DNA of 64,000 nt. Origin: Candidatus Melainabacteria bacterium 17Bon1m (GTDB lineage: Bacteria; Cyanobacteriota; Vampirovibrionia; Obscuribacterales; Obscuribacteraceae). The notes below the pieces were generated by a model, which saw nothing but the letters and a program-made list of their open reading frames with translations, was not told the origin of the DNA and searched no databases. The translations under genes and the position numbers were made by a program. Positions 37,920 through 55,519 of the stretch are shown here, piece after piece (position 1 is the first letter of the stretch; the number at the start of each line of letters is the position of its first letter). Where the stretch lies: positions 1,081,453 through 1,145,452 of the forward strand of contig JAVLKG010000001.1 of the NCBI GenBank assembly GCA_032128875.1. Reading direction: 5' to 3'.

Positions 37920-38624
37920 CTAAGGTAAATAATAAACCGAAAGGAGAAAACACATCACAGGTTGGCTAAGCTTCAGCTTTTTCGCCCGATCGGAGGCTTT
38001 GTCTGTTTCAGCTTTGGCCTCTTCTTTAGGAACAGCGATAACTACGTGCGAGACGCCCATGACTCGCTCGTAAGCTTCGATATTGCGGACAAATTGCACC
38101 ATTGAAGCGTAATTGCCTGTCACATAGACTTCTTTGTCAATTTGCTTGAGCCCTAATTCGCTGCCTACATCTGCCGGTTTTGAGGCGAGCGGCGCGGGGG
38201 CGGCTGGTTTTGTTTCTTTAGGCTTCGGTTTTGCTTGCTTGCCTTTCAGATCTTCAAGCATCTCAACCATTTCTTTGCGAGACTCTTTTACATCTTCCGT
38301 GCCCGGTGTTTCAAATCCGATCAAGTCAACGTTGGCTTGTTTAGCCAATCTTTCTAAATCAATCAAAAGCAAATCAACGTTTGCTTCTTTAGGAACTGCG
38401 TTGCGCAATGAAGCAATATCCGCGACAAGAGCTTGTTTTTCTCTATCTATTCGAAGCTTCTCTTTTAGCTTCAAATCGAGCTGCTCTTTTTGCTGCCTGT
38501 GCTGTGTGAGGTCAACCATTTTTGCAGACTCTTCATTTATGCACGGGTAAACGAGCATAGCAAAAACCAGGATGGCAAGCCCATAAATGACAGCGAGAGC
38601 ACCGTACTGAAATCTAGTGAGCAT
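37920..38624 (-). CDS. pilO: Type IV pilus assembly protein PilO
   Basis: TM, coiled coil, VPKEANVDLLLIDLERLA, VTGNYASMVQFVRNIEAYER. Confidence 0.85.
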   Translation of the reverse strand: MLTRFQYGALAVIYGLAILVFAMLVYPCINEESAKMVDLTQHRQQKEQLDLKLKEKLRIDREKQALVADIASLRNAVPKEANVDLLLIDLERLAKQANVDLIGFETPGTEDVKESRKEMVEMLEDLKGKQAKPKPKETKPAAPAPLASKPADVGSELGLKQIDKEVYVTGNYASMVQFVRNIEAYERVMGVSHVVIAVPKEEAKAETDKASDRAKKLKLSQPVMCFLLSVYYLP

Positions 38625-40531: not shown

Positions 40532-41605
40532 TCACATTCTTTCGGCCGGGAAAATCGAGTGTGGCATTATGAACATCGAGACTCCAGCGGCCATCGCCAA
40601 TGCTGGACCGAACGGGAAGGGTTTGGAAACTCTTTTGCCGGTCCAGATATAAGCGAAAACACCGGATGCGATGGCAAATATTGCTATTGATACGCCCCAC
40701 TGAACTTCCCAAATAGACTGGCTGCTTACCTGCGCCAAAACGGAGAACATAGCGGTGCCGACAACGGCCGCGACACCAAACCAAATGAGCCCCCACTTGA
40801 GGCAATGTCTAAATATGCCTGCCTTCTTCATCTCTCGGGTCAGATAAACTCCACCCAGGAGTGCACCAAGGATGAAACCAAGCATAACCGCAACTATTAA
40901 GCGCTCCCAGCCAAGCCAAGCAGAAACCAGAGCAGCCAGCACGGCATCGCCGCCGCCCATCACTTCGAATTCTTCTTCCTCTTTTGCTGGCCCTACTTCA
41001 AACACTGCGTCGATTTCTTCATCGCCCTCTTCTTCCTCCGGCGTCTCTTTTGATTCGGGGTGCAGATACGGATAAAGTACGAGTCCATAGAAAGCAATGA
41101 AGTCAAAGAGGATATAGCTGCCGCCGATACCGGCCATGGTGCCAACTAGATCGTTGCGAACCAAACCGCTGAACATAATTCCAAGAAGAATGGAAGGATA
41201 AGTAATCTCGTGCGGGATGAGCTTCTCGCGGAAGTCCGTGACGGTTACAGCAATCAGCACCGAGGAGAAATAGAGCATGCCGAAGCCTTCAGGCGTCAGG
41301 CCAAACCGCCAGATAACAACCATGAACCAGAGGGCAGTAAATAGTTCAACAACCGGATATTGCCATGAGATTTTTTTCTTGCAGTGCTTGCATCTTCCGC
41401 CGATCAAAAAATAAGAAGCGATCGGAATGAGCTCGAAGGGTCCCAATCTCTTGTCGCAATCGGGACACGAAGACGGCGGCCAGAACACGTTTTTCTCAGC
41501 CAACGATCGAATTGCCAGTACATTGAGAAAGCTGCCGACACACGCACCCACAACAAATGTGAGCGAGTAGAGCGCTGCCGGTGAATCTGCGATAGATATG
41601 CTCAT
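40532..41605 (-). CDS. pilD: Prepilin peptidase/N-methyltransferase
   Basis: GSFLNV, CPDC..CKHC, ISWQYPVVE, TDF, MGGGDA, PFGPAL. Confidence 0.93.
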   Translation of the reverse strand: MSISIADSPAALYSLTFVVGACVGSFLNVLAIRSLAEKNVFWPPSSCPDCDKRLGPFELIPIASYFLIGGRCKHCKKKISWQYPVVELFTALWFMVVIWRFGLTPEGFGMLYFSSVLIAVTVTDFREKLIPHEITYPSILLGIMFSGLVRNDLVGTMAGIGGSYILFDFIAFYGLVLYPYLHPESKETPEEEEGDEEIDAVFEVGPAKEEEEFEVMGGGDAVLAALVSAWLGWERLIVAVMLGFILGALLGGVYLTREMKKAGIFRHCLKWGLIWFGVAAVVGTAMFSVLAQVSSQSIWEVQWGVSIAIFAIASGVFAYIWTGKRVSKPFPFGPALAMAAGVSMFIMPHSIFPAERM

Positions 41606-42423
41606 GTGAATTCTTTTCTTTCTGTCACTATAGCTGCTAAAACCAGCAGCATGAGGACATAGGCAAGCACATAAGTGATGAGGTAGGTCAGTACCTCAGT
41701 CCCTGGAACTGTCCCATACAAAAGATGCCCGCGAATTCTGGTCAAGCCGGCAAAATCGGGAAGACAATAAAAAACTATGCTGAGGCATTGCGCAAGAAAT
41801 GGATTTTGAGAAAGTTTGCCCAATTCCAAAAGAGACTCTCCCAGATGTCCTGCAAGCCAGATTGCCAGGGTGAAAAGCACGCTCATGACCGGGGTTGAGA
41901 ACGTCGAAAAAAACGTAGCCAGGGCGGTTACGAATAATAGTTCTAGGTAAATAAGCGACAGTTCTTGAGTAATTTCTCTAAGCTGATCAAAGAAAGAAGC
42001 GCCTCCAAAACCGCTGCCAACCGAAGCAACAATTATGGAGAGAAACGCTCCCATCGCCGCTACCATGACCAGAACGCAGAGGCAAAGACCGATATATTTC
42101 CCCAGCACAAACTGCCATCCGCTCACAGGCTTCGTGAAAATGATGTAGATGGTGCGTCTCTCGAGTTCTTTATAAACAAGATTGGTGCCTGCAAAAACTG
42201 CGATGATGCCACCAATTAGAGAAATTGCCGCAAGCCCGATGTCCTTAAGGATGCGAATATCCTGACCTACGGATAGCGAACCGAGAATTATGCCGAGTAC
42301 GGTGACAATCGCGGCGAAAAGAATCAACGCGTAAATAATGCGGTCGCGAACTGTCTCACGAAAAGTGTTCAGCGCTATCGCTATGACCGCATCGACGGAA
42401 TTGTTGCGGCTGTTCTCGCTCAT
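41602..42423 (-). CDS. ABC transporter permease (PilI-like)
   Basis: IALNTFRETVRDR, KELERRTIY..TKPVS..FVLGKY; within the pil locus. Confidence 0.85.
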   Translation of the reverse strand: MSENSRNNSVDAVIAIALNTFRETVRDRIIYALILFAAIVTVLGIILGSLSVGQDIRILKDIGLAAISLIGGIIAVFAGTNLVYKELERRTIYIIFTKPVSGWQFVLGKYIGLCLCVLVMVAAMGAFLSIIVASVGSGFGGASFFDQLREITQELSLIYLELLFVTALATFFSTFSTPVMSVLFTLAIWLAGHLGESLLELGKLSQNPFLAQCLSIVFYCLPDFAGLTRIRGHLLYGTVPGTEVLTYLITYVLAYVLMLLVLAAIVTERKEFT

Positions 42424-43220
42424 GAGACAGCCTCCTTCGATTGAGTTCCGGCAGCTGCCGCCGCGCCGCTGTCCGCTTCGGCTTTTGCAATTACCTCGAG
42501 GAAGAAATCTTCCAGGTCTTTGTAATTACCCTGCCCCGAAATGTTCTTCACTTTCTCCTGCACCACCATGCGCCCCTTGAACATGACGCCGACCCGGTCG
42601 CAGACCTCGTTGACGTCCGGCAGCAGATGGGAGTTGAAAAATATAGTGGTGCCTTTTTCTTTTAGAGAAAGAAGAATTTGGCGTACATCTCGGCGCCCGA
42701 TCGGATCGAGACCGGACATAGGCTCGTCCCAGAAGACCAGTTCCGGGTTATTGATCAAAGACTGCGCGATGCCCAGCCTTTGCAGCATTCCTTTGGAATA
42801 CTTACGCATCTGCATGTCTGCCGCTTCACTCAGTCCGACTGTCTTTATCAGTTCGCCGGCGCGCTCTCGCCTTTGTTTTGATTCGATACCGAACAATTGA
42901 CCGGCAAAATCGAGAAATTCCCTGCCGGTCAAATGTGAGTAGAAGTATGGGTTTTCAGGCAAATAGCCGAGTTTTGCCAGTGCGCGTTTGTCGCCTGCGG
43001 GCATGCCAAGAATCTCTGCTTTCCCTTCCGTGGGCCGCATCAGTCCTAGCATCAGTTTTATGGATGTAGTTTTGCCCGCCCCGTTCGGTCCGATCAGACC
43101 AAACGTTTCGCCTCTGGTTACGCTCAAATCCAGCCCGCTTAGAATACGGACTTTGCGGCGTAAAAGACTGCTGGTTAGCTCTTTAGATAAGTTGGTCGTT
43201 TGGATGACAACATCCGACAT
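42420..43220 (-). CDS. ABC transporter ATP-binding protein (PilH-like)
   Basis: GPNGAGKTT, GYLPENPYFY, YSKGMLQR, DEPMSGLDP. Confidence 0.92.
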   Translation of the reverse strand: MSDVVIQTTNLSKELTSSLLRRKVRILSGLDLSVTRGETFGLIGPNGAGKTTSIKLMLGLMRPTEGKAEILGMPAGDKRALAKLGYLPENPYFYSHLTGREFLDFAGQLFGIESKQRRERAGELIKTVGLSEAADMQMRKYSKGMLQRLGIAQSLINNPELVFWDEPMSGLDPIGRRDVRQILLSLKEKGTTIFFNSHLLPDVNEVCDRVGVMFKGRMVVQEKVKNISGQGNYKDLEDFFLEVIAKAEADSGAAAAAGTQSKEAVS

Positions 43221-43223
43221 CGA

Positions 43224-44105
43224 CTAACTGCCTTTCTGACCACCAGTCTTTCTGTTCTGCGTGATGATCTTATGGAGTTCGGCAGTTGCTGCTCTCAGTC
43301 GGCGAGAGACTTGCATCTGCGAAATTCCCAAGCGGCGCGCTACTTCTGTTTGGCTCAAATCTTCGTAGAAAGTCAGCTGCACGACTTCGCGCAGACCATC
43401 TCTCAACTGTTTGATTGCCTCAGCCAACATGAAGCGGTCTTCTTTCGCCATCTGATTTGTTTGGTATTTGCCATCCACCAGAGTGTCGATGAGCGACTGC
43501 TCGGAGCCTGCATCGTTGGACAGCGCTTGGTCCAGAGAGATCAAAGTGCGTCTGCGATCGACTTCGTATGCTTCATTGACGCGGCTGACTGGAATTTCCA
43601 GTTCATGCGCGATTTCAACGTCTGAAGGCTCGCGGCCAAGACGTGCAGTAAGACTTTGCACCAGTCTATTGATGCGGAAGGACAACTCCTGCAATTCGCG
43701 CGGTGCACGAATCATGGCAGTCTTGTCTCTCAGATAATGTCGAATTTCGCCAGTAATCAAGTGTGTGGCGTAAGTTTGGAACTTGGCGCCGGCATCGGGC
43801 TTGAACTGGTCGACTGCCTTGATGAGCCCGATAGAGCCCACCTGGATCAGATCTTCGACAGGGTCGGTCGAGCGTCGCGCCAGACCGTAGGCAATTCTTT
43901 TCACAAGCGGTAAGGACGCTTGGATGATCGAGTCACGCATGGCCGGATCGCGAGATTCAGAATACACAGATAGCCAGTGGTGAATCTGGTCTGTACCTTT
44001 TCCTGTTGCGTCCATTTTGGCCGTTGTGCCGCTCGATATAGATGATGACTTTGATACGTACAAGCTTTTGCTCACTTGATATATTTTCACAGACCCGCCA
44101 GACAT
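43224..44105 (-). CDS. sigF: SigB/SigF/SigG-family RNA polymerase sigma factor
   Basis: EDLIQVGSIGLIKAVDQF, GEIRHYLRD, LGREPS, ISLD, DLSQTEVARRLGISQMQVSRRL; start may be downstream. Confidence 0.9.
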   Translation of the reverse strand: MSGGSVKIYQVSKSLYVSKSSSISSGTTAKMDATGKGTDQIHHWLSVYSESRDPAMRDSIIQASLPLVKRIAYGLARRSTDPVEDLIQVGSIGLIKAVDQFKPDAGAKFQTYATHLITGEIRHYLRDKTAMIRAPRELQELSFRINRLVQSLTARLGREPSDVEIAHELEIPVSRVNEAYEVDRRRTLISLDQALSNDAGSEQSLIDTLVDGKYQTNQMAKEDRFMLAEAIKQLRDGLREVVQLTFYEDLSQTEVARRLGISQMQVSRRLRAATAELHKIITQNRKTGGQKGS

Positions 44106-44172
44106 ATTGTAGAACCCTAAGGCAGATTAGCAAACAAAAAGATTAATCGCCAGTGCTTGGAAATATGAATTG

Positions 44173-45405
44173 CTATCTAAGTTGTTCGATTACGGTGAAA
44201 ATCGGCAGATACATACCCACGACAACTGACCCGACAATTCCCCCAATCCCAACAACCATGATGGGTTCGAGCAACGAGGTCAGTGACTCGACAGAGTTGT
44301 CCACTTCCATATCGTAAAATTCGGCGACTTTGGTCAACATCTCGTCCAAATTCCCAGTTTCTTCTCCAACCGCCACCATTTGAGTGACCATGGCCGGAAA
44401 GAGGGAAATTCTTGCCATCGGTTTGGAGATGGACCCGCCCTGTCTTACCTCGTTGTAGATTTTCTCCACCGAACGGGCAATGCTGGCGTTTCCGGCGGTG
44501 TCTTTGACCACGTCAAGAGCAGATAGCATTGGTACCCCGGCTTTGATTAGCGTGCCGAAGGTGCGGCAAAAGCGGGCTATTGCAACCTTTCTTGATAAAT
44601 CGCCGAAGAGTGGAAGCGATAGAAAGATGCCGTCTATGTGCTCGCGCCCCTTTTCCGTCCGGTAATAACGCCGGACAAAATAGAGAGAGACAAGGACGCA
44701 TACAACGAAAAGCGCCATCCAAATAGAGCGCATGTATTCCGACAGGCTCATCAAAAATCTTGTGTAAGCCGGCAGTTCTGACCCTATGTTTTTGAAGAGT
44801 CCTTCAAAAATAGGCAAAATAAAGGTCAGCATCACCCAGAAAACAAGAACGGCAATTGCCAACACTACCGAAGGGTAAACCATTGCTGAGCGCACTTTTT
44901 GGTTGAGCTTCTGGCGAGCCTCCAGAAAGTCGGCAAGACGGGTCAAGACCTCCGCCAGAAATCCGCCTGCTTCTCCTGCTCGGACCATAGACACATATAG
45001 CTTGTCGAAAACCCCGTGCTGCCGCACCAGTGCGTCCGAAAGCGACAGCCCCGACTCTACCGAGCGCCGCACTTCTTCCAGGCAAGACTTCAATTTCCTG
45101 TTCTTGCACTGCTCGACAATAATAGAAAGAGTCCTCAAAAGAGGCACCCCGGCGCTAATCATGGCGGCAAATTGGCGGCTGAAGACAACCATGTCCTTAA
45201 GCCCGATTGGCTCCAGCTTTGCCACTGCAGCATCAAGCTCGGCAATCATAGGAATTTGCATGAGCGAAAAGCCGCGCTCTTTTATTTCGATCACTTCATA
45301 GCCGCGTGCTGAAAGGCGGGCTTGAAGCAGTTGAGCGTTTTCAGCCTTAGCTGAAGACTCCCGGATCGCTCCGCTCATATCTTTTACTTTATAGACAAAG
45401 TCCAT
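44173..45405 (-). CDS. pilC: Type IV pilus platform protein
   Basis: FSRQFAAMISAGVPL, AGEAGG, SAMVYP, VGEETGNLD, LLEP..MYLPIF. Confidence 0.95.
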   Translation of the reverse strand: MDFVYKVKDMSGAIRESSAKAENAQLLQARLSARGYEVIEIKERGFSLMQIPMIAELDAAVAKLEPIGLKDMVVFSRQFAAMISAGVPLLRTLSIIVEQCKNRKLKSCLEEVRRSVESGLSLSDALVRQHGVFDKLYVSMVRAGEAGGFLAEVLTRLADFLEARQKLNQKVRSAMVYPSVVLAIAVLVFWVMLTFILPIFEGLFKNIGSELPAYTRFLMSLSEYMRSIWMALFVVCVLVSLYFVRRYYRTEKGREHIDGIFLSLPLFGDLSRKVAIARFCRTFGTLIKAGVPMLSALDVVKDTAGNASIARSVEKIYNEVRQGGSISKPMARISLFPAMVTQMVAVGEETGNLDEMLTKVAEFYDMEVDNSVESLTSLLEPIMVVGIGGIVGSVVVGMYLPIFTVIEQLR

Positions 45406-45430
45406 TTCGCCCTTCAGCCAAATTCATGAC

Positions 45431-46582
45431 CTAACCGAAACTACCATAGCCGAATCCCTGGCTTCCGCCGGCTCCGGTTCTTGTCGGGGCTTTCGACGCG
45501 GACGCCAGCAACTGTTCCAATTCGTCGGGTCTGGATGTTTTGGCCAGAGCATCTGCCGCGCTGATTGCATTCTGTTTCACCAGTGCTGCCAGGGCTGCTT
45601 CCAAAGTTTGCATCCCGAGATTGCCGCCCATTTGAATGGATGAGTAAATTTGAGCTGTTTTCGATTCTCGAATCAGGTTGGAGATAGCTGCAGTATTGAT
45701 AAGTACTTCTGCTGCAAGCACCCGGCCTTTTGTGACTGGGCTGCCGCCCGCTGATTCCTGCATACGTGGCAATAAGGTTTGGCTGACAATTGCCACCAAG
45801 CCGTTCGATAACATGATGCGAATCTGTTGTTGTTGGCCCGGGGGAAACGCGTCGATAATGCGATCGATGGTTTGTGGTGCAGAGCTCGTGTGCACTGTGC
45901 CAAACACAAGGTGACCGGTTTCTGCTGCCGTAAGCGCCAGGTGGATAGTTTCCAAATCCCGCATTTCACCCACTAAGATGACGTCAGGATCTTCTCTAAG
46001 CGCAGAGCGAAGTGCGTTGGAAAAACTTCTTGTGTCCGCTCCCAGTTCTCTTTGAGAAACAACCGATTTCTTGCTCGAGTGCAAGAACTCAATCGGATCT
46101 TCAATCGTGAGAATGTGTTCGGAACGATTTTCATTTATATAGTCGATCATCGAGGCAAGTGTCGTCGACTTGCCGGAGCCGGTCGGACCAGTGATAAGAA
46201 TCAGTCCGCGTGGCTTTTGCGTAATTTCCTTGCAGATATTCGGCAGGCACAGGTCGGCAAGCGACGGTATTGAGGATGGTACTACGCGAAATGCTGCCGC
46301 ATAATTGCCACGTTCTTTAAATACATTGATACGAAATCGCCCAACTCCATCAATCCCAAAACTCGCATCCAATTCCAGATTGGTTTCCAAAAGGTGTCGC
46401 TGCTCAGGCGTCAAAACCTCAAAGACCAGTCTCTCTACATCGGACTGCGAAAGGGTGGGAAGTTGGCTGCGCAAGAGCTTTCCAGACACACGTATGACAG
46501 GGGGCTGCCCGACTTTCAAATGCAAATCCGATGCCGACCGGTCCTGAACCAGTTGGAGAATTTCCTGCATCTCAATTTGCAT
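45431..46582 (-). CDS. pilT: Twitching motility retraction ATPase
   Basis: ASDLHL, TGPTGSGKSTT, ALREDPD, AAETGHLV, AISNLIRE (AIRNLIRE variant), GMQT. Confidence 0.95.
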   Translation of the reverse strand: MQIEMQEILQLVQDRSASDLHLKVGQPPVIRVSGKLLRSQLPTLSQSDVERLVFEVLTPEQRHLLETNLELDASFGIDGVGRFRINVFKERGNYAAAFRVVPSSIPSLADLCLPNICKEITQKPRGLILITGPTGSGKSTTLASMIDYINENRSEHILTIEDPIEFLHSSKKSVVSQRELGADTRSFSNALRSALREDPDVILVGEMRDLETIHLALTAAETGHLVFGTVHTSSAPQTIDRIIDAFPPGQQQQIRIMLSNGLVAIVSQTLLPRMQESAGGSPVTKGRVLAAEVLINTAAISNLIRESKTAQIYSSIQMGGNLGMQTLEAALAALVKQNAISAADALAKTSRPDELEQLLASASKAPTRTGAGGSQGFGYGSFG

Positions 46583-46596
46583 ATCTGCCCCCTACG

Positions 46597-48660
46597 CTAC
46601 ATCTTCTTCGGCTGCTTCCTTGGCTCCTGGCAATACGGGCAACGCGACCATTCGCCTAGAATTTCAGCATTGCATCCAGTACATTCTGTCTCTCTTTGTG
46701 CTTCCTCTTCTGTCAGTCCGCACTTCGGGCAACTTGTCCATCCTTCTTGCTGCAGTGTTCCGCAACGCTGGCAAGTTGTCTTCAGATCGTGCTGGCAGAA
46801 TGGGCATTTTATAAAATCGTCGCTTATAGGTGTTCGGCATTTAGGGCAAAGCTTGTCATCACCTTCGGTATCAGCCAGGGTCACTCTCACTACTTCATCA
46901 GCCGTCGTCAAGCCCTGACCAACCAGGCGAATACTGTAGTCTTTGAGTGTGATCATGCCTGATTGCTTGCCTGCAAAACGAATCATCGCCGTACTTGAGC
47001 CTTTGGAAATGAGGTCTCGCAGTTCATCATTCATGCGCATGACTTCGAAAACACCGATACGATTTTTGTAGCCGGTTTGATTGCAGCCATCGCATCCAAT
47101 ACCACGCTGAAAGATCGGCCAGCCATTTTCGTCAGTTCTAAAACGGAAATACTGAATAGTTGATTCAGCTGGTTTTTCTTGGAGACGGTCGAGAACACCG
47201 AGATATTCGAGTGCTGACCTCTCCGGTTTATACTCTTGTATGCAGTCAGGGCAAATGCGTCTCACTAATCTTTGGGCGACAACTCCAATGGTCGCCGATG
47301 CCACCAAATACGGGTCCACTTCCATTTCTGCAAGACGAGTAATTGCGCCGGGAGCGTCATTCGTGTGCAATGTGGTGAAAACCAAGTGACCAGTGAGAGC
47401 CGCTTCTACAGCGATTTTTGCTGTTTCACGGTCGCGGGTTTCTCCAACGAGCATGATGTCCGGATCTTGACGCAAGAATGAACGCAATATTCTGGCAAAG
47501 TCCAGTCCTTTTTCACGCAAAACCTGAACCTGCGTAATTCCTGCCATCTCGTATTCAATCGGGTCTTCGGCAGTGACGATATTCACTTCGGGCGAATTGC
47601 GCTCGGCAAGCGCAGAATAGAGGGTCGTTGTTTTTCCTGAACCAGTTGGTCCGGTGACGAAGATAATGCCGTAAGGCTTGCTGACCATCTCGCGAATGAC
47701 ATCAAGGGTGCTCTCATCGCTGACGAGTTTATCCAATCCAAGCATGGTGCCGGACTTGTCGAGCATTCTCATCACAATCTTTTCGCCGTGCTTGGAGGGC
47801 AACGAAGATACCCGGAAGTCAATGTCTCTGCCGGAAAACCGCACTCTAATTCGTCCATCTTGTGGCAAGCGTCTTTCTGCTATGTCCATGTCTGCCATGA
47901 TTTTGTAGCGCGAAACGAGCGCTGCCAAAATCGCACGCGGCAACTTGCGATCGACGAACAGAACACCATCCAGGCGATAACGAATTACAACGGAATTTAC
48001 CGTCGGCTCGATATGGATATCAGAGCAATGTCTTTTGATGGCTTTGGCAAGTACCTGGTTGGCGAGGTGAACGATCGGGGCATCCTGCGCTTGTTTTGCA
48101 AGGTCAAGATCGTTGATGTGATCTTCGGCACTGCTGATTAAGTCGAGCGTTGAGAGATCGACTTCTGCTTCGATGAATGTTTGATCCGCTTCCTCATACG
48201 ACTCTTCTTGCAGCAAATCTTGGCGCGATGCATAGATGTTTTCCATGAAATGCTGGAAGTCGTCTTCTGTGCAAACCATGGTCTTAATCTGCATGCTTTT
48301 CAGGCGATATTTGATATCGTCCAGTGCCAGCAGGTTATTGGGATTGACCATTGCCACCATCAGGCAATTGCCTTCGCTACTTACCGGAACGACCTGGTGC
48401 TGGCGCATCAAAGTCTCCGGTAATAGTTCTAATGCTCCGAGCTCTGGCTGTGATTTTGCCAGTGAAATATATTTGACGCCGAACTGCATTTCCAGAGCGT
48501 TCTGCAGATGGGTTTCATTGGCCAAACCAAGCCGAGACAGAATCAAACTAATCGGCTCGCCGGTGCGAAGCCTCTCTTGCTGAACGAGCTTCAACTCCTC
48601 GGCAGTAATCAGCCCGTTGTCTACGAGCAGTTCTCCAAAATCTTTCTTGATTAGTGCCAT
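46597..48660 (-). CDS. pilB: Type IV pilus extension ATPase with C-terminal Cys-rich zinc ribbons
   Basis: MshEN-like N-terminus, SDIHIEP, RLPQDGR, TGPTGSGKTTT, LRQDPD, ALTGHLV, six C-terminal CxxC. Confidence 0.95.
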   Translation of the reverse strand: MALIKKDFGELLVDNGLITAEELKLVQQERLRTGEPISLILSRLGLANETHLQNALEMQFGVKYISLAKSQPELGALELLPETLMRQHQVVPVSSEGNCLMVAMVNPNNLLALDDIKYRLKSMQIKTMVCTEDDFQHFMENIYASRQDLLQEESYEEADQTFIEAEVDLSTLDLISSAEDHINDLDLAKQAQDAPIVHLANQVLAKAIKRHCSDIHIEPTVNSVVIRYRLDGVLFVDRKLPRAILAALVSRYKIMADMDIAERRLPQDGRIRVRFSGRDIDFRVSSLPSKHGEKIVMRMLDKSGTMLGLDKLVSDESTLDVIREMVSKPYGIIFVTGPTGSGKTTTLYSALAERNSPEVNIVTAEDPIEYEMAGITQVQVLREKGLDFARILRSFLRQDPDIMLVGETRDRETAKIAVEAALTGHLVFTTLHTNDAPGAITRLAEMEVDPYLVASATIGVVAQRLVRRICPDCIQEYKPERSALEYLGVLDRLQEKPAESTIQYFRFRTDENGWPIFQRGIGCDGCNQTGYKNRIGVFEVMRMNDELRDLISKGSSTAMIRFAGKQSGMITLKDYSIRLVGQGLTTADEVVRVTLADTEGDDKLCPKCRTPISDDFIKCPFCQHDLKTTCQRCGTLQQEGWTSCPKCGLTEEEAQRETECTGCNAEILGEWSRCPYCQEPRKQPKKM

Positions 48661-48807
48661 GGTCTTGAGTCTCCAGAAGTGGAAAACAACCGACCTGCGG
48701 TTGATTTTCGACTTAGATTACAAAGCTAACTTTCCACTTTCTTTCTTATAAATACCGGTTGGGCCCAAATCAGAACAATTCGATGTAAAACCGTCGATGC
48801 TCGAAGA

Positions 48808-51054
48808 CTACTCAATCCAGACGAGAATGTGCTCACCGCCTGCGGTATGGGGAACAACGGTCAATCGCAGGTTAAAGTCTTTGCCGGACATTCTGACTTT
48901 GACCCGGCCATCCTGGGGCAAGCGCCTGTCTTGCTGATCGACGCGACCCATTTTACGAAAACGCTGAGTGAGCGCCGGCATCAGCATTTTTGGCAGCTTG
49001 CGCACTATCATCAACTGACCTTGAATGCGGTAGTGCACCAAAACCTGCTTGTCCATTGCCTCTACGTGAATGGTTGAAGCACCTTTGGCAATGCCGTTGG
49101 CTAAGATTTGATTGCAGAGCATGATTACAGCGGCGTCATCACTTTCTTTCTCGAGAGCATCAGGTTGTTTCTGCTCGGTAGAAGTGCGAGCGATCGACTC
49201 GCTTGCAACCGGTTCGCATTCGCCAAGACCTGCTTCTCCAGTGGATTTCGGTGTGATTGCTTTGAATTCTTCGCTGGCCTGCTCCAATTTGACTTCGGTT
49301 GTTTTATCTTGTAAAACCTGCTTTGTCTCTTCCTTCGTCGCAGCCGCGGAATCAGCCTCTGGCTCAGGCTTTTTCTCTTCCTTCGGCTCAGGCTTGGATT
49401 CTTGCGCGGGCGGTTTTTTCTCGACAGTCGGACTGACTAGTGCGTCGAATTCACCTGTGGCCTCATCATCTTTGAGCCCCGCTTTGCCTGGTTCTTCTGC
49501 CAGCTCTTTGGCCAATTCTCTGGCGACATCTCTGGCATCCGGACGTTCTTTTTTTGTTTCCGACTTGGATTCTGATTTCGTTTCTGATTTTGTCTCAGCC
49601 TTTGTCTCAGCCTTGGTCTCCGTATCTGAGCCCTTGTCCTCGGTTTTCTTTTGAGGCTCGGCTTCTGCCTTGGGCTCTTCTTTCTTTTCTTCTACTGACT
49701 CAGCCTTCTTCTCGTCTTCGGACTCCGGTTTTTTCTCGTCTACCGGTGCAGCTTTTTTCTCAGCCTCCGGCTCTGATTTCTTCGCTTCAGAGTCTTTGTT
49801 GTCCTCTCTGGCTGGTTCAACCTTTGTTTCAGGCGCCTCGACCTCTTTCTTTTCTTCAGCCTGTTTTTCTTTTGGTTCTTTATCTTCAGTTTTTGCCGCA
49901 GGTTCGGACCCTGCCGACTTTGAAGTATTATCAGCCGGCTTCTTGCCAGCCTTATTGCGGGTTTCTTCAATATGCTTTTGCAGCATGTTTAAGTCGAATT
50001 TGCCGGTTTCGTCGTTTGTCGGTATTTCCGGCTCAGTCCTGAACATATTGTCGAGTTCGGACTTATAGGCGCTGTCTAAATCTGCTTTGACTACAATTTC
50101 TGGCTCTGTTTTGCCAAGAGATGCTGATTCTGCCTTCGCTTTCGCTTCAGCCTCGGCTTTTTGCGCTTCTACTTTCGCTGCTTCCGCTTTCTCTGCTTCC
50201 GCTTTCTCTGCTTCTGCTTTCTGTGCAGCTTCTTTGTCCGCCGCGGCCTTATCGGCAGCTGCTTTCTCGCTTTCAGCCTTCTCTTTTTCTGCCTTTTCTC
50301 TCGCTTCAGTTTCTGCCTTGAGCGCTGCCTCAGCGTCTGCTTTGGCTTTTGCCGCGGCTTCTGCTTCAGCCTTGGCGGCTGCTTCTGACTCTGCTTTGCC
50401 CTTAGCTGCAGCCTCAGCCTCAGCTTTTGCCGCAGCTTCTGCTTCCGCCTGGGCTGCTGCTTCTTGTTCGGCCTTGCCCTTAGCGAGGAATGCGGCTAGA
50501 GGCGAAAGTGTCGGCTTCTCCTCTGCTTTTGCTTCAGCAGCAGGAGCAGCTTCTTTCTTGCTTGAGTTCTCATCCTTGGCGCCATTATTGCCTTTGTCCG
50601 TTGGCTTGGCGTCTAAATTCTCCTGATAAAGATTGCTCATGAACAGCATGAAGTCGTCTTCAGTACAGACGACGGGCGTGAATTGCCTGTCTCCGAAATA
50701 TTGTTTGAGCGCCGCCAAGCCCGTTGAATGCTCAGGATTGACCATGACAACGGTTATGCGTGAGCCTTTCTCATTGACTGGAACCATCATGTGTTCGCGG
50801 ATCTTCGCTTCCGGCACGATCTTCAAAATTTCCGGTTGAATTTCTGTGCGCGCCAGGCTGACGTATGTGACCCCGTATTTGAGCTCCAGGGCGTTCTTAA
50901 AATGGTGTTCGTAAGCTAGTCCAAGTCTCGACAAAATGATGCTGAGCGGCTCTCCGGTGCTTTTTGCCTCTCTCTCGGCAAGCCGCAATTCATCGGCGCT
51001 TATTTGACCGTTGTCGACCAAAAGTTCGCCGATGGATTTTTCCACTACTGACAT
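48808..51054 (-). CDS. PilB N-terminal-domain paralogue lacking the ATPase domain, with long A/E/K-rich linker
   Basis: KSIGELLVDNG..TGEPLSIILSRLGLA matches the PilB N-terminus; ends with IHVE..RRLPQDGRV..GGEHILVWIE*; no Walker A; ATG 51054 (ORF track 51306). Confidence 0.85.
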   Translation of the reverse strand: MSVVEKSIGELLVDNGQISADELRLAEREAKSTGEPLSIILSRLGLAYEHHFKNALELKYGVTYVSLARTEIQPEILKIVPEAKIREHMMVPVNEKGSRITVVMVNPEHSTGLAALKQYFGDRQFTPVVCTEDDFMLFMSNLYQENLDAKPTDKGNNGAKDENSSKKEAAPAAEAKAEEKPTLSPLAAFLAKGKAEQEAAAQAEAEAAAKAEAEAAAKGKAESEAAAKAEAEAAAKAKADAEAALKAETEAREKAEKEKAESEKAAADKAAADKEAAQKAEAEKAEAEKAEAAKVEAQKAEAEAKAKAESASLGKTEPEIVVKADLDSAYKSELDNMFRTEPEIPTNDETGKFDLNMLQKHIEETRNKAGKKPADNTSKSAGSEPAAKTEDKEPKEKQAEEKKEVEAPETKVEPAREDNKDSEAKKSEPEAEKKAAPVDEKKPESEDEKKAESVEEKKEEPKAEAEPQKKTEDKGSDTETKAETKAETKSETKSESKSETKKERPDARDVARELAKELAEEPGKAGLKDDEATGEFDALVSPTVEKKPPAQESKPEPKEEKKPEPEADSAAATKEETKQVLQDKTTEVKLEQASEEFKAITPKSTGEAGLGECEPVASESIARTSTEQKQPDALEKESDDAAVIMLCNQILANGIAKGASTIHVEAMDKQVLVHYRIQGQLMIVRKLPKMLMPALTQRFRKMGRVDQQDRRLPQDGRVKVRMSGKDFNLRLTVVPHTAGGEHILVWIE
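49553..50460 (-). repeat. Coding low-complexity repeats (AEAEAAAK, AEKAE, ETKA/ETKS)
   Basis: Visible 12-30 nt periodicities inside the PilB-paralogue linker. Confidence 0.7.
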
Positions 51055-51311
51055 TAAGACCGCCTTTTCATTAATTTCGCCGTCTTGGTGACAGCTTGGA
51101 AGGCTCGGACTCCGGCATGTCTGGTCGCCAAGAGATGCTGCTGTAAAGCCTTCCCAAATTTTGTGCCCGCTGCTTTTTTCTATTAAACAGACTGTATACA
51201 GATCAGAATATGAGACTTTAATTTGCCGTGTGCAAGAATAGCTAGCAAGGGTTTTGCGATAGCGCCTTTGAATTTCAGGGCTTTTCCAGCGATTTATTAT
51301 CTGCACAAATC

Positions 51312-52721
51312 ATGACTGAAAGAGCCGAAGAAACCAAAGAGGAAGCCACAAAGGATACGCTTTTGAATTCAGAGCCATCGAATTCCCCTAAAGGCAATGC
51401 GGCAAATAAAATGGACAAACCAATTCCCACGGCTTGGGGATACCGCGGGTTTGTTTTGGTAAGTTGCACCTTCGTCATTTTCGAGCTTATTTTTGTCACG
51501 CTATATTCGACCACATCATGGTTTTCCACCGATATCCGGTACCTAGGAATACCAGTGGTAATCGTTTTGCTTCCCATTGCCCATCAAATTCTCCTCTCTT
51601 TCGAAAGGAAAATCCTTCTGAAAATCGCCTCGCCTCTGCGCGATGGTTTGCCACTAATTTTGTATTGGAATTGGATAAAACTCGACGAAACCGCGCTTTC
51701 AATCGGGCTGAGAAAGGTTGCGTATTCTGCAATCGATGAACTGAAACTGACTATTTGGGGAAATTTGCACATCCGTACTCGCGCGTTGCGTACCGGCTTC
51801 GAGAATACGAGCGATGCTCGAATTTCGGCTGGTGATGGGAATGTTTCGACCGGAGACGCCCGTGTTTTAGCAGATGATGCCAGTGTTTCGGCTGCTTCTT
51901 CTAAGGGCGAACCCACTGATCTGATTTTCAAGCTGCCACTGGGAGTGGTATCGCCTCAATTTCAAAAGATGTTGATTGAAACTGTGAAAAAGGCAAATCC
52001 GCATGTGGAGATCAATAAGCGTTTGAGAAAGCGCCTTTCGCAGCAGGATGTTTCAACCACTCAAATGGTAGGCGTGATGGGCGCAGCTTTTCTGCTCATA
52101 GTACTTCTCGACTTAGGCCAGGCTTCTTACACGTCCCTGGATGTTTTGAAAAACTATTACCTTGCCGATTTGAATGCCCGGAAGCACGAGATGGCTGTTG
52201 CCGAAAGCTATCTAGAAACTGGCGATAAGCTCATAACCGGTGCACTGCCGATGTCCTGGATCAAGACGAAATTCTTTGACGAAGGTAATGGTGCTGCAGG
52301 TGTCAAAGTTGCGCGCGCTGAAGCGCTTTGGCAGCTTGGACGTCGAGAGGAGGCGGTCGCCGAATGCCGTAACGCCTTAAAGCTTTCACCGAAGGGCTTT
52401 CGTATCAACTTGCGAATGGCACGCATGCTGACCGCAATGGGGTCTCCGAAAGAGGCGAAAGCCGAAATTGAGCAGGCTATGGAGGCAAATAAAGACTCTT
52501 TCGTGCCAAACGAATACATGATGGCGTTGGCGTTAGAGACATCCGGCAAGCTGGAAGCCCAAAAGCTCTACGAAACATATCTTAAGGAGCTGGATGAAGA
52601 GGTCTTCGGCGAAGAGCCTGTGTGGCCTCCGGGCGGCGAGCGAATGATACACAACGTCTGGTTTAGGGAGGACTTGACATTCCTGTTTCAGCGCCTTTTC
52701 AAACAGCTTGGGCGCTCTTGA
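51312..52721 (+). CDS. Membrane protein with C-terminal TPR repeats
   Basis: Two N-terminal TMs, one central TM, ARAEALWQLGRREEAVAECRNALKLSP. Confidence 0.78.
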   Translation: MTERAEETKEEATKDTLLNSEPSNSPKGNAANKMDKPIPTAWGYRGFVLVSCTFVIFELIFVTLYSTTSWFSTDIRYLGIPVVIVLLPIAHQILLSFERKILLKIASPLRDGLPLILYWNWIKLDETALSIGLRKVAYSAIDELKLTIWGNLHIRTRALRTGFENTSDARISAGDGNVSTGDARVLADDASVSAASSKGEPTDLIFKLPLGVVSPQFQKMLIETVKKANPHVEINKRLRKRLSQQDVSTTQMVGVMGAAFLLIVLLDLGQASYTSLDVLKNYYLADLNARKHEMAVAESYLETGDKLITGALPMSWIKTKFFDEGNGAAGVKVARAEALWQLGRREEAVAECRNALKLSPKGFRINLRMARMLTAMGSPKEAKAEIEQAMEANKDSFVPNEYMMALALETSGKLEAQKLYETYLKELDEEVFGEEPVWPPGGERMIHNVWFREDLTFLFQRLFKQLGRS

Positions 52722-52803
52722 TTTCTTAGACCTAGTCAATTTATTGAAGACCTCGAAAGAGGTATCATCGTTAGCCAAATAGTAAGGCTTTTCGAGTTTT
52801 TTG

Positions 52804-54039
52804 ATGACGTTGGCTAAGGGATCAGTTGGAGTCGTTGTGGCCGCCCTCTGTTTCTGCATTGCAGTAGAGGGCTGGATAGCCTTTGCACACCCTTTTGCGC
52901 GTTTGCCAGTCGCTACTATCGAGCAAGGCGAGCTGTTCAACTCGATGAGAGACATCGCCAAACAAACCTCGGGCAAAAACCCTCAACCGTACATGGTGCT
53001 GCTCGGCAGCTCTCTCGTGGTGGCGCCTGTGGTGCAAGCTGAGTCACAGCATCGCAAGCGAGCAATCAAACGCTTTTACGAACGGCGCGCAACAGCCTGC
53101 GAAGAGCAATTGCAACAGTGCATTTCATTGCCTTCGAGCCAACCTGTCCAGATATTCAATGCCGCTGTCGGCGGTGGCATGGCATCTGATGATTATTTTG
53201 TTGCCAGAGAATTGCTTGAATCGAAACACAAACCAGTTGCTTTGGTTTGCGGTGTGGCTCCTCGTGATTTCCAGGATAACCTGGTGCCGGGAATGTACTC
53301 AACGAGCGCGTTCCAGATACTCTCGAATCTGTCCGACGTGAAAAGCGTTTTCTGCGACGAATCACTGACGCTAGACAAAAAGTTCGACATTGCTATGGGT
53401 CGCGTCAGCAATCTTTGGCGCAATCGGGCTGAAGTGAAATCATTTTTCGGCTTGCTTTCGAAAAAACTGATTGAGAAGACTTGCCCTTTCATTCTTTTTG
53501 AGAAATACGGCGGGACAAGTATGGCGCTTGCACCTCAGAAGGACGGCATCTTTCCCGAAGAGGTCAAAGGAACGCCTTTTGCTTATCCGGGCTATGCAAT
53601 CGATCACTACGAGCCGAAGAAGACCTGTGAGCAGTATATGCGCAGCTACAATCCTGTGGACAAGCGTATGGTCGACGAACAGTTTGACTATTTCGATCGC
53701 ACCCTGGAATTAGCTCAAAAGCATGGCGTCGAGGTTCTCGTTGTGAATATGCCGCTTAGCGGAACCAACAAGACGCTTCTCGCACCTGGATTTTATGAGT
53801 CGTACCTGACGAAGCTGAAGAGCATCTGTGCAACTCGAAATGTTCAACTGACCGACTTCAACAATTCGTCGTGGGACAAGGAAGGCAATTTTATCGACAC
53901 GGTCCACATCTCTGCCGAGAGGAGTAATGCTTTCATTCGCGCATTGATGGAGTCTGTCGCTCAATCGCCTCTTTCTGTGGCTTTGTCTGGCGAGCACAAG
54001 CAGCAGATCGGCGCTAAGTCGATTTCAATTCCTCAATAA
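52804..54039 (+). CDS. SGNH-like (DUF1574/DltD-like) membrane-anchored protein
   Basis: N-terminal anchor, VLLGSS, FNAAVGG, VVNMP, FIDTVH. Confidence 0.7.
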   Translation: MTLAKGSVGVVVAALCFCIAVEGWIAFAHPFARLPVATIEQGELFNSMRDIAKQTSGKNPQPYMVLLGSSLVVAPVVQAESQHRKRAIKRFYERRATACEEQLQQCISLPSSQPVQIFNAAVGGGMASDDYFVARELLESKHKPVALVCGVAPRDFQDNLVPGMYSTSAFQILSNLSDVKSVFCDESLTLDKKFDIAMGRVSNLWRNRAEVKSFFGLLSKKLIEKTCPFILFEKYGGTSMALAPQKDGIFPEEVKGTPFAYPGYAIDHYEPKKTCEQYMRSYNPVDKRMVDEQFDYFDRTLELAQKHGVEVLVVNMPLSGTNKTLLAPGFYESYLTKLKSICATRNVQLTDFNNSSWDKEGNFIDTVHISAERSNAFIRALMESVAQSPLSVALSGEHKQQIGAKSISIPQ

Positions 54040-54124: not shown

Positions 54125-55519
54125 GTGTTGCCTGCCAGACTGTACTTTGCGGCGCTACTTTCTGTTTTCGCCGCTCTTTCGCCCCTTTGTTCGGCTGTAG
54201 CTGACACTGTTCAAGCTCCGACCGAGCAGACCAAAGCAGTGGACACAGTTCTGGACTCCAAGCGTCCAATTAGAGACAAATGGGCTCTCGTTGTAGGCAT
54301 CAGCAATTTTGAAAATCCCAAAGTCCCTACGCTCAAATACTCGACAAAAGACGCACGCGACTTTTACAACTATTTGATCAAAGACGCAAACTTCCAGCCC
54401 TCACATGTGCGTCTGTTGCTTGATGAGAAAGCAACGCGCAGGCGCATTATCTCTGAGCTTGGCAATAAGTTTTTGGCTCGCTTAGCACGCCCAGGGGACT
54501 TGATTGTCCTATTTTTTTCTACTCACGGTAGTCCGTCTCAGATGGATTTGCGAGGTAAGAGTTATTTGGTCACTTACGACGCGGATCCGGAAGACCTTGA
54601 TGCTACGGGCATTGGGATGCAGGAAGTGAACGATAAGATTCACAGCCGCGTGCTTTCCGACCGTGTTGTGTTGGTTCTTGACGCATGCCATTCCGGCAGC
54701 AGCGATCCGAATGCCAAAGGTATGTATCGCGTCGGCAATATGAATGCCCAAGAACTGGCTGAAGGTTCTGGTCAGTTGGTAATTTGCAGCAGCCGCCCTG
54801 ACGAGCAATCTTGGGAGTCTAAGCGCTATGAGAATGGTGTTTTCACAAGAAATTTGCTGGAGGCTTTGCGGGGCTCAAGCGGAAAGTTGCCGCTCGGCGC
54901 AGCTTTCGAGAAAGCTCAGCAATTAGTGGAGACTGAAGTGCGTGAAGACCGGCCTGGAGCGCGTCAATCTCCAATGCTCAATGCAAAATGGGCGGGCAAT
55001 GACATCGTACTCTCGGTTCCAGCGTCCGAACCGCAAAAGTTGGCTCCGACTGTAGTTGCAGATCTCGAGCCAGACAGCACAGCACCCAATACGGGACAAT
55101 CTAGACTGTCCAGCAAAAACGTTTCAGAAGTGCAGACAATAGCAATGGCTCAAACAGTAAAAACAGCTTCTATGTTTCCTACTGCGAATCAAAAATTGGT
55201 TTTGACAGCCAGCTATTTTTCCAATGTGCCAAATCCGAAAGAAGCTCTGACTGGCGCCTATGAGGCATCCGCCGCTAATTTCAACAACGTCGAATTTTAC
55301 TGGCGTAAAGCAAAACTTCTGATTCAATTAGGTAAATGGACATCAGCAATGGAGTGCCTTAAAGGATGTATCGTGGACGATCCGAATCAATCGGACTTTT
55401 ATTTGGCGCGCGCTCTTTGCTATCACCACATGAAAATGCATGGACTGGCAACACGCGATATAGAGACCGCTCAGTTCAAAAACCCTTTAGTCTCGAGAAA
55501 TATAGAATTTGGAGAATGA
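54125..55519 (+). CDS. Secreted caspase-family (C14) peptidase with C-terminal TPR
   Basis: Signal peptide, KWALVVGIS, FSTHGS, LDACHSG, NGVFT; TPR-like DFYLARALCY. Confidence 0.88.
   Translation: MLPARLYFAALLSVFAALSPLCSAVADTVQAPTEQTKAVDTVLDSKRPIRDKWALVVGISNFENPKVPTLKYSTKDARDFYNYLIKDANFQPSHVRLLLDEKATRRRIISELGNKFLARLARPGDLIVLFFSTHGSPSQMDLRGKSYLVTYDADPEDLDATGIGMQEVNDKIHSRVLSDRVVLVLDACHSGSSDPNAKGMYRVGNMNAQELAEGSGQLVICSSRPDEQSWESKRYENGVFTRNLLEALRGSSGKLPLGAAFEKAQQLVETEVREDRPGARQSPMLNAKWAGNDIVLSVPASEPQKLAPTVVADLEPDSTAPNTGQSRLSSKNVSEVQTIAMAQTVKTASMFPTANQKLVLTASYFSNVPNPKEALTGAYEASAANFNNVEFYWRKAKLLIQLGKWTSAMECLKGCIVDDPNQSDFYLARALCYHHMKMHGLATRDIETAQFKNPLVSRNIEFGE

What the first reader, a model, noticed from the sequence alone, without database searches (positions are those of the whole stretch)
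48808..51054. ATPase-less PilB paralogue with a ~490-aa charged linker heading the pilus locus
Seen: this 748-aa ORF lies directly upstream of pilB. Its first ~145 aa align by eye with the PilB N-terminal domain (GELLVDNG..TGEP...ILSRLGLA, VCTEDDF). After ~490 aa of A/E/K/P-rich repeats comes a diverged second PilB domain (IHVE, RRLPQDGR), and the protein stops before the RecA-like ATPase domain; no Walker A remnant is apparent in the ~150 nt before pilB. Established: PilB N-terminal domains mediate partner contacts and hexamer packing. Inference: an intact frame cut at a domain boundary looks like a retained non-catalytic adaptor, spacer or inhibitor of the pilus motor rather than decay. I know of no described component with this layout.
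Basis: partly seen in the sequence, partly recalled or inferred. Interest (0 to 1): 0.85.

Follow-up and report, generated by a model that had tools for sequence, protein, structure and literature searches.

The report
Motor-less copy of pilus ATPase PilB
This gene is a conserved copy of the pilus motor protein PilB that keeps the motor's two front domains, joined by a long floppy linker, but has no engine, and relatives keep it even after losing the pilus motor, so it probably acts as a binding or regulatory protein of a kind not yet described.

Summary
Window 48808..51054 (minus strand) encodes a 748-aa protein. It has a PilB N1/MshEN domain (50% identical to the adjacent PilB), a 487-aa A/E/K-rich linker and a PilB N2 domain (42% identical). 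It stops two residues after the last N2 strand, 147 nt upstream of pilB-pilT-pilC.

It is neither decay nor an artefact. Orthologues in 11 of 12 same-genus genomes, and in at least 6 of 12 genomes from other genera of the family (record titles: Candidatus Melainabacteria / Obscuribacteraceae), stop at the same residue (conserved ...W-I/L-E end). dN/dS is about 0.05 (N1) and 0.03 (N2). All 22 sampled paralogues form one clade apart from PilB (SH-aLRT 99). Linker length runs from about 27 to 530 aa.

Five relatives whose locus reads paralogue then sigma factor gave no PilB ATPase-domain match. PilM was not found in the four of them tested, and PilC-type genes in neither of the two tested. The canonical c-di-GMP motif is degenerate.

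A second ATPase-less PilB paralogue (1823 aa) lies elsewhere in the genome. I found no description of this layout in print. Mechanism: a non-catalytic two-headed scaffold or regulator; this is inferred, not shown.

The parts
48808..51054 (-). Whole gene: 748-aa ATPase-less PilB paralogue (N1/MshEN, linker, N2), stop codon included
50611..51054 (-). N1 domain (aa 1-148), MshEN/GSPII fold, 50% identical to PilB N1
   Evidence: Pfam; BLASTP; AF2 pLDDT about 95; for the short orthologue, Foldseek to MshE 5htl and PilF GSPII domains; dN/dS 0.047
49150..50610 (-). Linker (aa 149-635): A/E/K/P-rich, mostly disordered, tandem-repeat DNA, length-variable between orthologues
50128..50472 (-). Predicted single long alpha-helix (aa 195-309; A/E/K repeats), aligned only in G000, G011, G007, G003 and G008
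   Evidence: AF2 helix 195-309, pLDDT 62-91; alignment gaps in the other orthologues
49957..50022 (-). Conserved linker island 1 (aa 345-366), holds the first 'TGxF' motif and a short helix
   Evidence: alignment of 10 same-genus orthologues; positions; AF2 helix 355-368
49429..49545 (-). Conserved linker island 2 (aa 504-542): short helix plus second 'TGxF' motif
49195..49272 (-). Conserved linker island 3 (aa 595-620): third F-containing motif and a 'GECEP' stretch just before N2
48811..49149 (-). N2 domain (aa 636-748), PilB N2D fold; the protein ends two residues after a Trp that is invariant in the 39-sequence alignment A2 (the G013 orthologue, not in A2, lacks this ending)
   Evidence: Pfam T2SSE profile 2-108/370; 42% identity to PilB N2; Foldseek of the short orthologue to PilB 5zfr/5tsg, rmsd about 2.5 A over about 106 residues; invariant W746; dN/dS 0.026
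48661..48807 (-). 147-nt spacer to pilB; no ATPase remnant; stops in all three frames; no terminator-like site by the scan
46597..48660 (-). pilB (687 aa): full N1-N2-ATPase plus a C-terminal double zinc ribbon
45431..46582 (-). pilT
44173..45405 (-). pilC (two T2SSF domains)
43224..44105 (-). SigF-like group-3 sigma factor. In relatives that lack pilBTC it lies directly downstream of the paralogue
51312..52721 (+). Divergently transcribed membrane protein (three hydrophobic segments) with C-terminal TPR repeats; a conserved neighbour in 20 of 22 loci

Best explanation
SHOWN: The gene encodes a real, selection-maintained, non-catalytic paralogue of the type IVa pilus extension ATPase PilB. It groups with the family's own PilBs in the tree and sits between the TPR gene and pilB, where paralogue-less genera have the TPR gene directly upstream of pilB. 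I read this as a tandem duplication of the 5' part of pilB near the base of one family of non-photosynthetic Cyanobacteriota (record titles: Candidatus Melainabacteria / Obscuribacteraceae). It kept the two N-terminal PilB domains (N1/MshEN and N2) and ends at the N2/ATPase boundary. The two domains are joined by a tether of freely varying length.

INFERRED mechanism: It acts as a two-headed binding scaffold or regulator rather than as an enzyme. The N1 head would engage whatever PilB-type N1 domains dock on at the cytoplasmic face of a pilus or secretion platform. The N2 head would engage a partner such as a RecA-type ATPase lobe. The tether carries short acidic 'TGxF'-type motifs that resemble a motif in PilB's own N1-N2 linker. 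In the window's organism the gene is co-oriented with pilB-pilT-pilC and probably co-transcribed with them. However, relatives without PilB, and without PilC and PilM where these were tested, keep it. So at least one essential partner lies outside the type IVa motor. Candidates are the Tad-type ATPases, the conserved neighbouring TPR membrane protein, or the SigF-like sigma factor's pathway.
For: Architecture.

Conserved stop: in 16 of 17 orthologous frames the N2 match ends within one residue of the frame's end. 19 of 20 C-terminally complete loci end in W-(I/L)-x. W746 is invariant in a 39-sequence alignment.

Purifying selection: N1 median dN/dS 0.047 (38 of 45 pairs usable); N2 0.026 (21 of 45 usable, the rest saturated in dS).

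Distribution: 11 of 12 same-genus genomes; at least 6 of 12 genomes of other genera in the family; 0 of 16 genomes of other families of the class. About 42 clusters (at 90% identity) of 274-411-aa members in the large protein collection.

One origin: 22 paralogues form one clade (SH-aLRT 99), apart from 23 PilBs and next to the family's own PilBs. In two genera without the paralogue (G014, G017) the TPR gene lies directly upstream of pilB.

Independence from the type IVa motor: the locus reads TPR gene, paralogue, sigma in 5 loci. A PilB query finds only N1-N2 matches in 5 of 5 such genomes at E<=1e-10. PilM was found in 0 of 4 tested. Only Tad-size T2SSF genes were found in G016 and G013. In G016 (96% complete) the only longer T2SSE ATPase frames are 543 and 555 aa.

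Tether variability and motifs.
Against: No binding partner is shown. No expression data could be obtained: the libraries labelled RNA-Seq held 60-72 kb contigs, which means genomic DNA. The short orthologues in motor-less genomes have lost the arginines of the PilB-like 'RRLPQDGR' stretch that the window's protein keeps. The long and short forms may therefore not do the same job, and the window's protein could still be motor-dedicated. The paralogue was not found with this query in several genera of the family (G014, G017, G022, G024), so it is dispensable for some relatives that have PilB.
Confidence: 0.5

Rival explanations
1. Dedicated accessory of the type IVa pilus motor. The orphan N2 head docks on the ATPase lobe of PilB (or PilT), where a neighbouring protomer's N2 normally sits, and the N1 head competes for PilB's docking site. 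The protein would thereby cap, tether or inhibit the hexameric motor.
For: It lies directly upstream of pilB-pilT-pilC on the same strand in the window and in 14 of 20 loci with a complete 3' end, with no terminator-like site in the 147-nt spacer. The window's N2 keeps PilB-like residues, including RRLPQDGR. Passages of the PilB review PMC11656802 state that in PilB rings the N2D of one protomer rests on the CTD of the next.
Against: Orthologues are conserved in 5 genomes that gave no PilB ATPase-domain match. PilM was not found in the 4 of them tested, and PilC-type genes in neither of the 2 tested. Several genera with PilB do not have the paralogue.
Confidence: 0.25
2. Stand-alone c-di-GMP receptor. 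The MshEN head senses c-di-GMP and relays the signal, for instance to the SigF-like sigma factor or to polysaccharide or pilus gene expression. This would parallel the signalling role reported for Myxococcus PilB.
For: MshEN fold. Weak match to the NCBIfam c-di-GMP motif model (26.1 bits). A large c-di-GMP network: 39 GGDEF matches in this genome and 19 in G016. Conserved adjacency to a SigF-like sigma factor. The abstract of PMC2532724 says Synechocystis SigF drives pilA1. The abstract of PMC5544727 reports a signalling role for PilB in Myxococcus.
Against: The 26.1 bits fall below the model's 38-bit cut-off. Against the relaxed 24-residue motif of PMC5013675, the window protein matches 7 of 11 constrained positions in motif I and 9 of 11 in motif II, and has no full motif match. 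It lacks the first Arg. All 38 paralogues that could be scored have Gln where a hydrophobic residue is required. By contrast, two PilBs from another order of the class match 11 of 11 in both motifs.
Confidence: 0.15
3. Pseudogene, frameshift or assembly artefact of a second full-length pilB.
For: None beyond the truncation itself.
Against: The stop falls at the same position across genera and independent assemblies. dN/dS is 0.03-0.05. The 147-nt spacer holds no ATPase remnant. Four public runs, which may include the source sample, carry the identical sequence with no differing letters or indels.
Confidence: 0.01

Closest known systems
PilB, type IVa pilus extension ATPase (TIGR02538; structures 5tsg/5tsh, 5zfr, 5it5)
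   Same: The N1 (MshEN/GSPII) and N2 domains are homologous: 50% and 42% identity to the adjacent PilB. The short orthologue's N2 model superposes on PilB N2D at about 2.5 A. Same operon.
   Different: No RecA-like ATPase domain, no Walker A/B and no zinc motif. TIGR02538 scores 138.8 bits against a 675.65 cut-off. The N1-N2 linker is expanded from about 40 aa to 487 aa. An Arg that is invariant in PilB in the last N2 strand is replaced by an invariant Trp (my positional mapping of the invariant columns listed).
MshE / PilF-GSPII type MshEN c-di-GMP receptors (PDB 5htl, 8pdk)
   Same: Same fold for N1.
   Different: The two 24-residue c-di-GMP motifs are degenerate. Binding was not tested.
Known trans-acting PilB cofactors (PilZ, FimX, phage Tip/Aqs1), from passages of the review PMC11656802
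   Same: Possibly the same logic: a non-enzymatic protein acting on a pilus motor.
   Different: These are unrelated folds. None is derived from PilB itself, and none was seen there with an N1-linker-N2 layout.
Second ATPase-less PilB paralogue of the same genome (G000:C4; L036:3742..9213, 1823 aa)
   Same: Same design: MshEN domain(s), long low-complexity linkers and an N2 domain, ending just after the last N2 strand. About 11 related cluster representatives carry the same kind of ending.
   Different: Two MshEN domains, acidic and Pro/Ala-rich linkers, only 23-38% identity to this protein, and not next to pilus genes.
   Same: An MshEN+N2 module without the ATPase (AI note, not checked here).
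   Different: Fused to FHA domains, described there as a one-off gene, in a different phylum.

Membership tests
PilB / GspE-type secretion ATPase (TIGR02538, PF00437) | N-terminal GSPII/MshEN (N1) domain | tested here: met
   PF05157 E 4.1e-15; 50% identity to PilB N1; fold match for the short orthologue
PilB / GspE-type secretion ATPase (TIGR02538, PF00437) | N2 domain preceding the ATPase core | tested here: met
   PF00437 profile positions 2-108; Foldseek of the short orthologue to PilB N2D, rmsd about 2.5 A
PilB / GspE-type secretion ATPase (TIGR02538, PF00437) | RecA-like C-terminal ATPase domain with Walker A and B | tested here: not met
   PF00437 positions 109-370 are absent; no Walker A pattern; TIGR02538 scores 138.8 bits against a 675.65 cut-off; the protein ends two residues after the N2 strand
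PilB / GspE-type secretion ATPase (TIGR02538, PF00437) | Tetracysteine zinc motif in the C-terminal domain | tested here: not met
   The region is absent from the protein; it is present in the adjacent PilB (invariant Cys columns)
MshEN c-di-GMP receptors (PMC5013675) | MshEN fold | tested here: met
MshEN c-di-GMP receptors (PMC5013675) | Two tandem 24-residue motifs RLGxx(L/V/I)(L/V/I)xxG(L/V/I)(L/V/I)xxxxLxxxLxxQ | tested here: not met
   7/11 and 9/11 constrained positions of the paper's relaxed motif, no full match; NF053729 scores 26.1 bits against a 38-bit cut-off
MshEN c-di-GMP receptors (PMC5013675) | Measured c-di-GMP binding | not testable with these tools
   Needs ITC or DSF on purified N1
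Pseudogene / truncation artefact | Stop position varies or the frame is broken among relatives; neutral dN/dS | tested here: not met
   The stop is conserved; dN/dS is 0.026-0.047

The most novel reading that the evidence does not exclude
N1-tether-N2 proteins are endogenous 'pseudo-protomers' of secretion-superfamily ATPases. The orphan N2 head would insert at the N2-binding face of a RecA lobe of PilB or PilT, and of Tad-type ATPases in motor-less lineages. This would set ring assembly or stoichiometry, while the N1 head and the linker motifs anchor the complex to a platform or to the neighbouring TPR membrane protein. That would be a new, self-derived class of regulator for pilus and secretion motors, which would explain why two such families coexist in one genome and survive loss of the type IVa pilus.
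Probability: 0.15. Interest if true: 0.8.

Novelty: new variant of a known kind. Interest (0 to 1): 0.6.

Why it matters
Passages of the 2024 PilB review (PMC11656802) say the contribution of the N1 domain to PilB function is poorly understood. Here evolution has isolated the N1 and N2 domains of PilB as a free-standing protein under strong selection, in two paralogous families, and kept them even where the type IVa motor is gone. That implies these domains have a function of their own, in binding or signalling, that does not need the ATPase. It also offers a natural minimal construct for finding what N1 and N2 bind. For the little-studied, uncultured Obscuribacteraceae it marks a conserved locus (TPR membrane protein, paralogue, SigF-like sigma factor) that probably controls surface behaviour.

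Tried and rejected
1. Complex prediction of the N2 head (aa 630-748) with PilB N2+ATPase (aa 185-600), both given as alignments, gave no verdict: score 0.22 and 0.16 against a mark of 0.32, and the controls were not run. This counts neither for nor against binding.

2. Expression. Three runs labelled RNA-Seq hold the stretch, but as single 60-72 kb contigs from the same sample as a likely source DNA run. They show DNA in the library, not transcription.

3. Distribution outside the family. In a sample of 150 other genomes of the phylum, the listed N1-N2 matches lay in frames of 449-760 aa, apart from one 252-aa frame at a contig start. The 449- and 470-aa frames lie near contig ends and are ambiguous, and 63 matches were not listed. 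The ESM Atlas lists clusters of 286-294 aa carrying T2SSE+MshEN whose few taxon labels include Planctomycetota. Two such short representatives that I checked were fragments: one on a 1.1-kb contig, one named 'partial'. Two others (365 and 416 aa, on 44- and 23-kb contigs, taxon unknown) may be independent ATPase-less forms. Not resolved.

4. A single-protein locus scan found only 3 close loci; the alignment-based scan was needed.

5. A promoter and terminator scan gave nothing above shuffled expectation.

6. Literature searches for a described ATPase-less PilB paralogue found none. The supplementary tables of PMC5013675, which list MshEN domain architectures, could not be seen and might include this layout.
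Full report
OBSERVATION

The minus-strand ORF 48808..51054 encodes 748 aa. Pfam finds an MshEN domain (PF05157, aa 60-145). It finds only the first 108 of 370 positions of the T2SSE model, at aa 637-744. The PilB equivalog TIGR02538 scores 138.8 bits against a cut-off of 675.65.

Against the adjacent full-length PilB (46597..48660, 687 aa), aa 1-143 are 50% identical and aa 634-739 are 42% identical to PilB 187-292. The 487-aa linker is 20.9% Ala, 20.5% Glu and 17.0% Lys, and its DNA carries tandem repeats. The protein has no Walker A pattern. The 147-nt spacer before pilB has stops in all three frames.

The real start is the ATG at 51054. Conservation among orthologues begins there, and in one orthologue a stop lies directly before it.

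IS IT A REAL GENE?

I searched 41 genomes: G000, 12 of the same genus, 12 of other genera of the family, and 16 of other families of the class.
- An orthologue upstream of pilB appears in 11 of 12 same-genus genomes. The twelfth is 64% complete.
- It appears in at least 6 of 12 genomes of other genera in the family (G013, G015, G016, G018, G019, G021). Two more hits are cut at contig ends.
- It was not found with this query in G014, G017, G022 or G024.
- None of the 16 genomes from other families showed an ATPase-less frame.

In 16 of 17 orthologous frames the N2 match ends within one residue of the frame's end; the G013 copy has a deviant tail. The alignment shows the shared ending ...H-I/L-V/L-V/I-W-I/L-E/D. 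Trp746 is invariant in a 39-sequence alignment.

Nei-Gojobori dN/dS among 10 same-genus orthologues:
- N1: median 0.047, with 38 of 45 pairs usable.
- N2: median 0.026, with 21 of 45 usable and the rest saturated at synonymous sites.
- Linker: only 2 of 45 pairs were usable, giving 0.13-0.21.

So this is neither decay nor an artefact.

ORIGIN

A maximum-likelihood tree of concatenated N1+N2 (45 rows, IQ-TREE quick search) puts all 22 paralogues on one side of a branch with SH-aLRT 99. They sit next to the family's own PilBs, and away from PilBs of other families of the class. The base of this grouping is unresolved (support 54). Paralogue branches are longer than PilB branches.

In two genera without the paralogue (G014, G017), the TPR gene that flanks it lies directly upstream of pilB. 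This fits a tandem duplication of the 5' part of pilB between the TPR gene and pilB. Record titles of the related loci read Candidatus Melainabacteria, Obscuribacterales or Obscuribacteraceae; a few bear other labels.

In a sample of 150 other genomes of the phylum, I saw no ATPase-less frame among the 150 listed matches. The exceptions were frames at contig ends, and 63 matches were not listed.

STRUCTURE

AlphaFold2 of the 288-aa orthologue (41-row alignment) gives mean pLDDT 85.5: two confident domains and a disordered linker. Foldseek matches N1 to MshE (5htl) and to Thermus PilF GSPII domains. It matches N2 to the N2D of PilB (5zfr, 5tsg, 5it5) at about 2.5 A over about 106 residues with 30-34% identity.

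AlphaFold2 of the window protein (39 rows, mean pLDDT 67.9) gives N1 and N2 at pLDDT above 90. It predicts one uninterrupted helix at 195-309 and short helices at 328-337, 355-368 and 507-519. The rest of the linker has pLDDT below 50.

The long helix is aligned only in G000, G011, G007, G003 and G008. Linker length across orthologues ranges from about 27 to 530 aa. Three short islands are conserved within the genus, each with a 'TGxF'-type acidic motif. By eye they resemble a motif in the consensus of PilB's own N1-N2 linker; that resemblance is inference.

CONTEXT, AND THE KEY RESULT AGAINST A PURE MOTOR-ACCESSORY ROLE

On the minus strand the window reads: paralogue, pilB, pilT, pilC, SigF-like sigma factor, two ABC transporter genes, prepilin peptidase, a PilM-PilN fusion, PilO.

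I examined 22 related loci, several of which are the same genomes as.
- The paralogue is present in all 22; three copies are cut by contig ends.
- The TPR membrane protein gene lies divergently upstream in 20 of 22.
- 20 of the 22 loci have a complete paralogue 3' end. Of these, 19 end in W-(I/L)-x (the exception is L043 = G013). The next gene is pilB in 14 and the sigma factor directly in 5 (L039, L041-L044). In one the contig ends.

In five genomes of the paralogue-then-sigma type, a PilB query finds only N1-N2 matches (query residues up to about 308) at E<=1e-10. PilM is found in 0 of the 4 tested, but is found in G000. G016 (96% complete) and G013 have only Tad-size T2SSF genes, in frames of 129-320 aa. 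G016's only longer T2SSE ATPase frames are 543 and 555 aa with partial profile coverage.

The orthologues in these genomes are well conserved. In a 41-sequence alignment with 41-66% identity to its first sequence, 20 columns are invariant and about 65 are nearly invariant. The protein therefore has a function that does not need PilB, nor, where tested, PilC or PilM.

One caveat applies. These short forms have lost the arginines of the PilB-like RRLPQDGR stretch, which the window's long form keeps. The two forms may have diverged in function.

c-di-GMP

I used the relaxed motif printed in PMC5013675 (passages read).
- The window protein matches 7 of 11 constrained positions in motif I and 9 of 11 in motif II, with no full match.
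- All 38 paralogues that could be scored have Gln at a position that should be hydrophobic.
- The family's PilBs score 9/11 and 9/11.
- Two PilBs from another order of the class (L034, L035) score 11/11 in both motifs.
- The NCBIfam c-di-GMP motif model scores 26.1 bits against a cut-off of 38.

The genome has 39 GGDEF matches. Canonical c-di-GMP binding is therefore doubtful, but it is not excluded.

A SECOND FAMILY

The same genome encodes an 1823-aa protein (G000:C4; L036:3742..9213). Its layout is MshEN, acidic linker, MshEN, Pro/Ala-rich linker, N2, and it too ends just after the last N2 strand.

I examined 149 proteins: the best hits of a profile search of 1.84 billion representatives, plus four cluster representatives from the earlier search. 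By a simple pattern, 66 lack a Walker A. By my reading of their C-termini, about 21 belong to the W-ended family of this finding and about 11 to the second family. Most of the remaining 34 look like fragments or unclassified proteins.

MECHANISM

Shown: a non-catalytic, two-domain PilB derivative under purifying selection, with a dispensable-length tether. It is linked to the pilus operon in this organism and is retained without that operon in relatives.

Inferred: it works by binding, as a two-headed scaffold or regulator. At least one of its partners lies outside the type IVa motor. I put this at about 0.5, a dedicated motor accessory at about 0.25, a c-di-GMP receptor at about 0.15 and an artefact at about 0.01.

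NOVELTY

Five full-text searches turned up no ATPase-less N1-linker-N2 PilB paralogue. Neither did passages of the 2024 review of PilB cofactors or the MshEN paper's architecture section. The MshEN paper's supplementary tables could not be seen.

That suggests the ATPase-less module recurs.

I rate this a new variant of a known kind, with interest 0.6.

Noticed in passing
G000:C4, locus L036:3742..9213 (+): A second ATPase-less PilB paralogue of 1823 aa. Layout: MshEN, acidic low-complexity region of about 750 aa, second MshEN, Pro/Ala-rich region of about 750 aa, N2 domain, ending right after the last N2 strand. Frames of 1633-1933 aa occur in same-genus genomes.
   Followed up: partly
L036:536..2011 (-): A 491-aa protein with several MshEN-like 'hGxxhhxxGhh' helix-pair motifs and a C-terminal hydrophobic segment, next to the giant paralogue. 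It may be another c-di-GMP-motif protein.
   Followed up: no
window 46597..46860 (C-terminal about 85 aa of PilB): PilB carries a C-terminal double zinc-ribbon extension (PF12773, aa 605-648, plus further Cys pairs). It is conserved in the family's PilBs, which are 75-99% identical over their full length.
   Followed up: partly
window 43224..44105 (-): A SigF-like group-3 sigma factor sits inside the pilus cluster. It is 82-100% identical across genera, which makes it more conserved than the pilus genes around it. It stays next to the paralogue when pilBTC are absent.
   Followed up: partly
window 38614..40428 (-): PilM and PilN are fused in one 604-aa protein (PF11104 at aa 13-341, PF05137 at aa 483-558).
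   Followed up: no
window 41602..43220 (-): An ABC ATPase and an ABC-2 permease are inserted between the sigma factor and the prepilin peptidase inside the pilus cluster. They are absent from the G016 locus, where the sigma factor abuts the peptidase gene.
   Followed up: no
window 54125..55519 (+) and L036:10415..12187 (-): Two secreted proteins share a caspase-like stretch (by eye '...VLVLDACHSG...' / '...VLVLESKYSG...') followed by TPR-like repeats. They may be paralogous peptidase-C14-type proteins. No domain search was run.
   Followed up: no
window 42500..53000 in runs X2-X4: Three libraries labelled transcriptomic RNA-Seq assemble this region into single 60-72 kb contigs identical to the window, so they contain genomic DNA.
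   Followed up: yes
loci L045, L052, L060: The record titles name Actinobacteria or Drouetiella, but their PilB and paralogue genes group with the other family members, whose records are mostly titled Melainabacteria or Obscuribacterales. The bins are probably mislabelled.
   Followed up: partly
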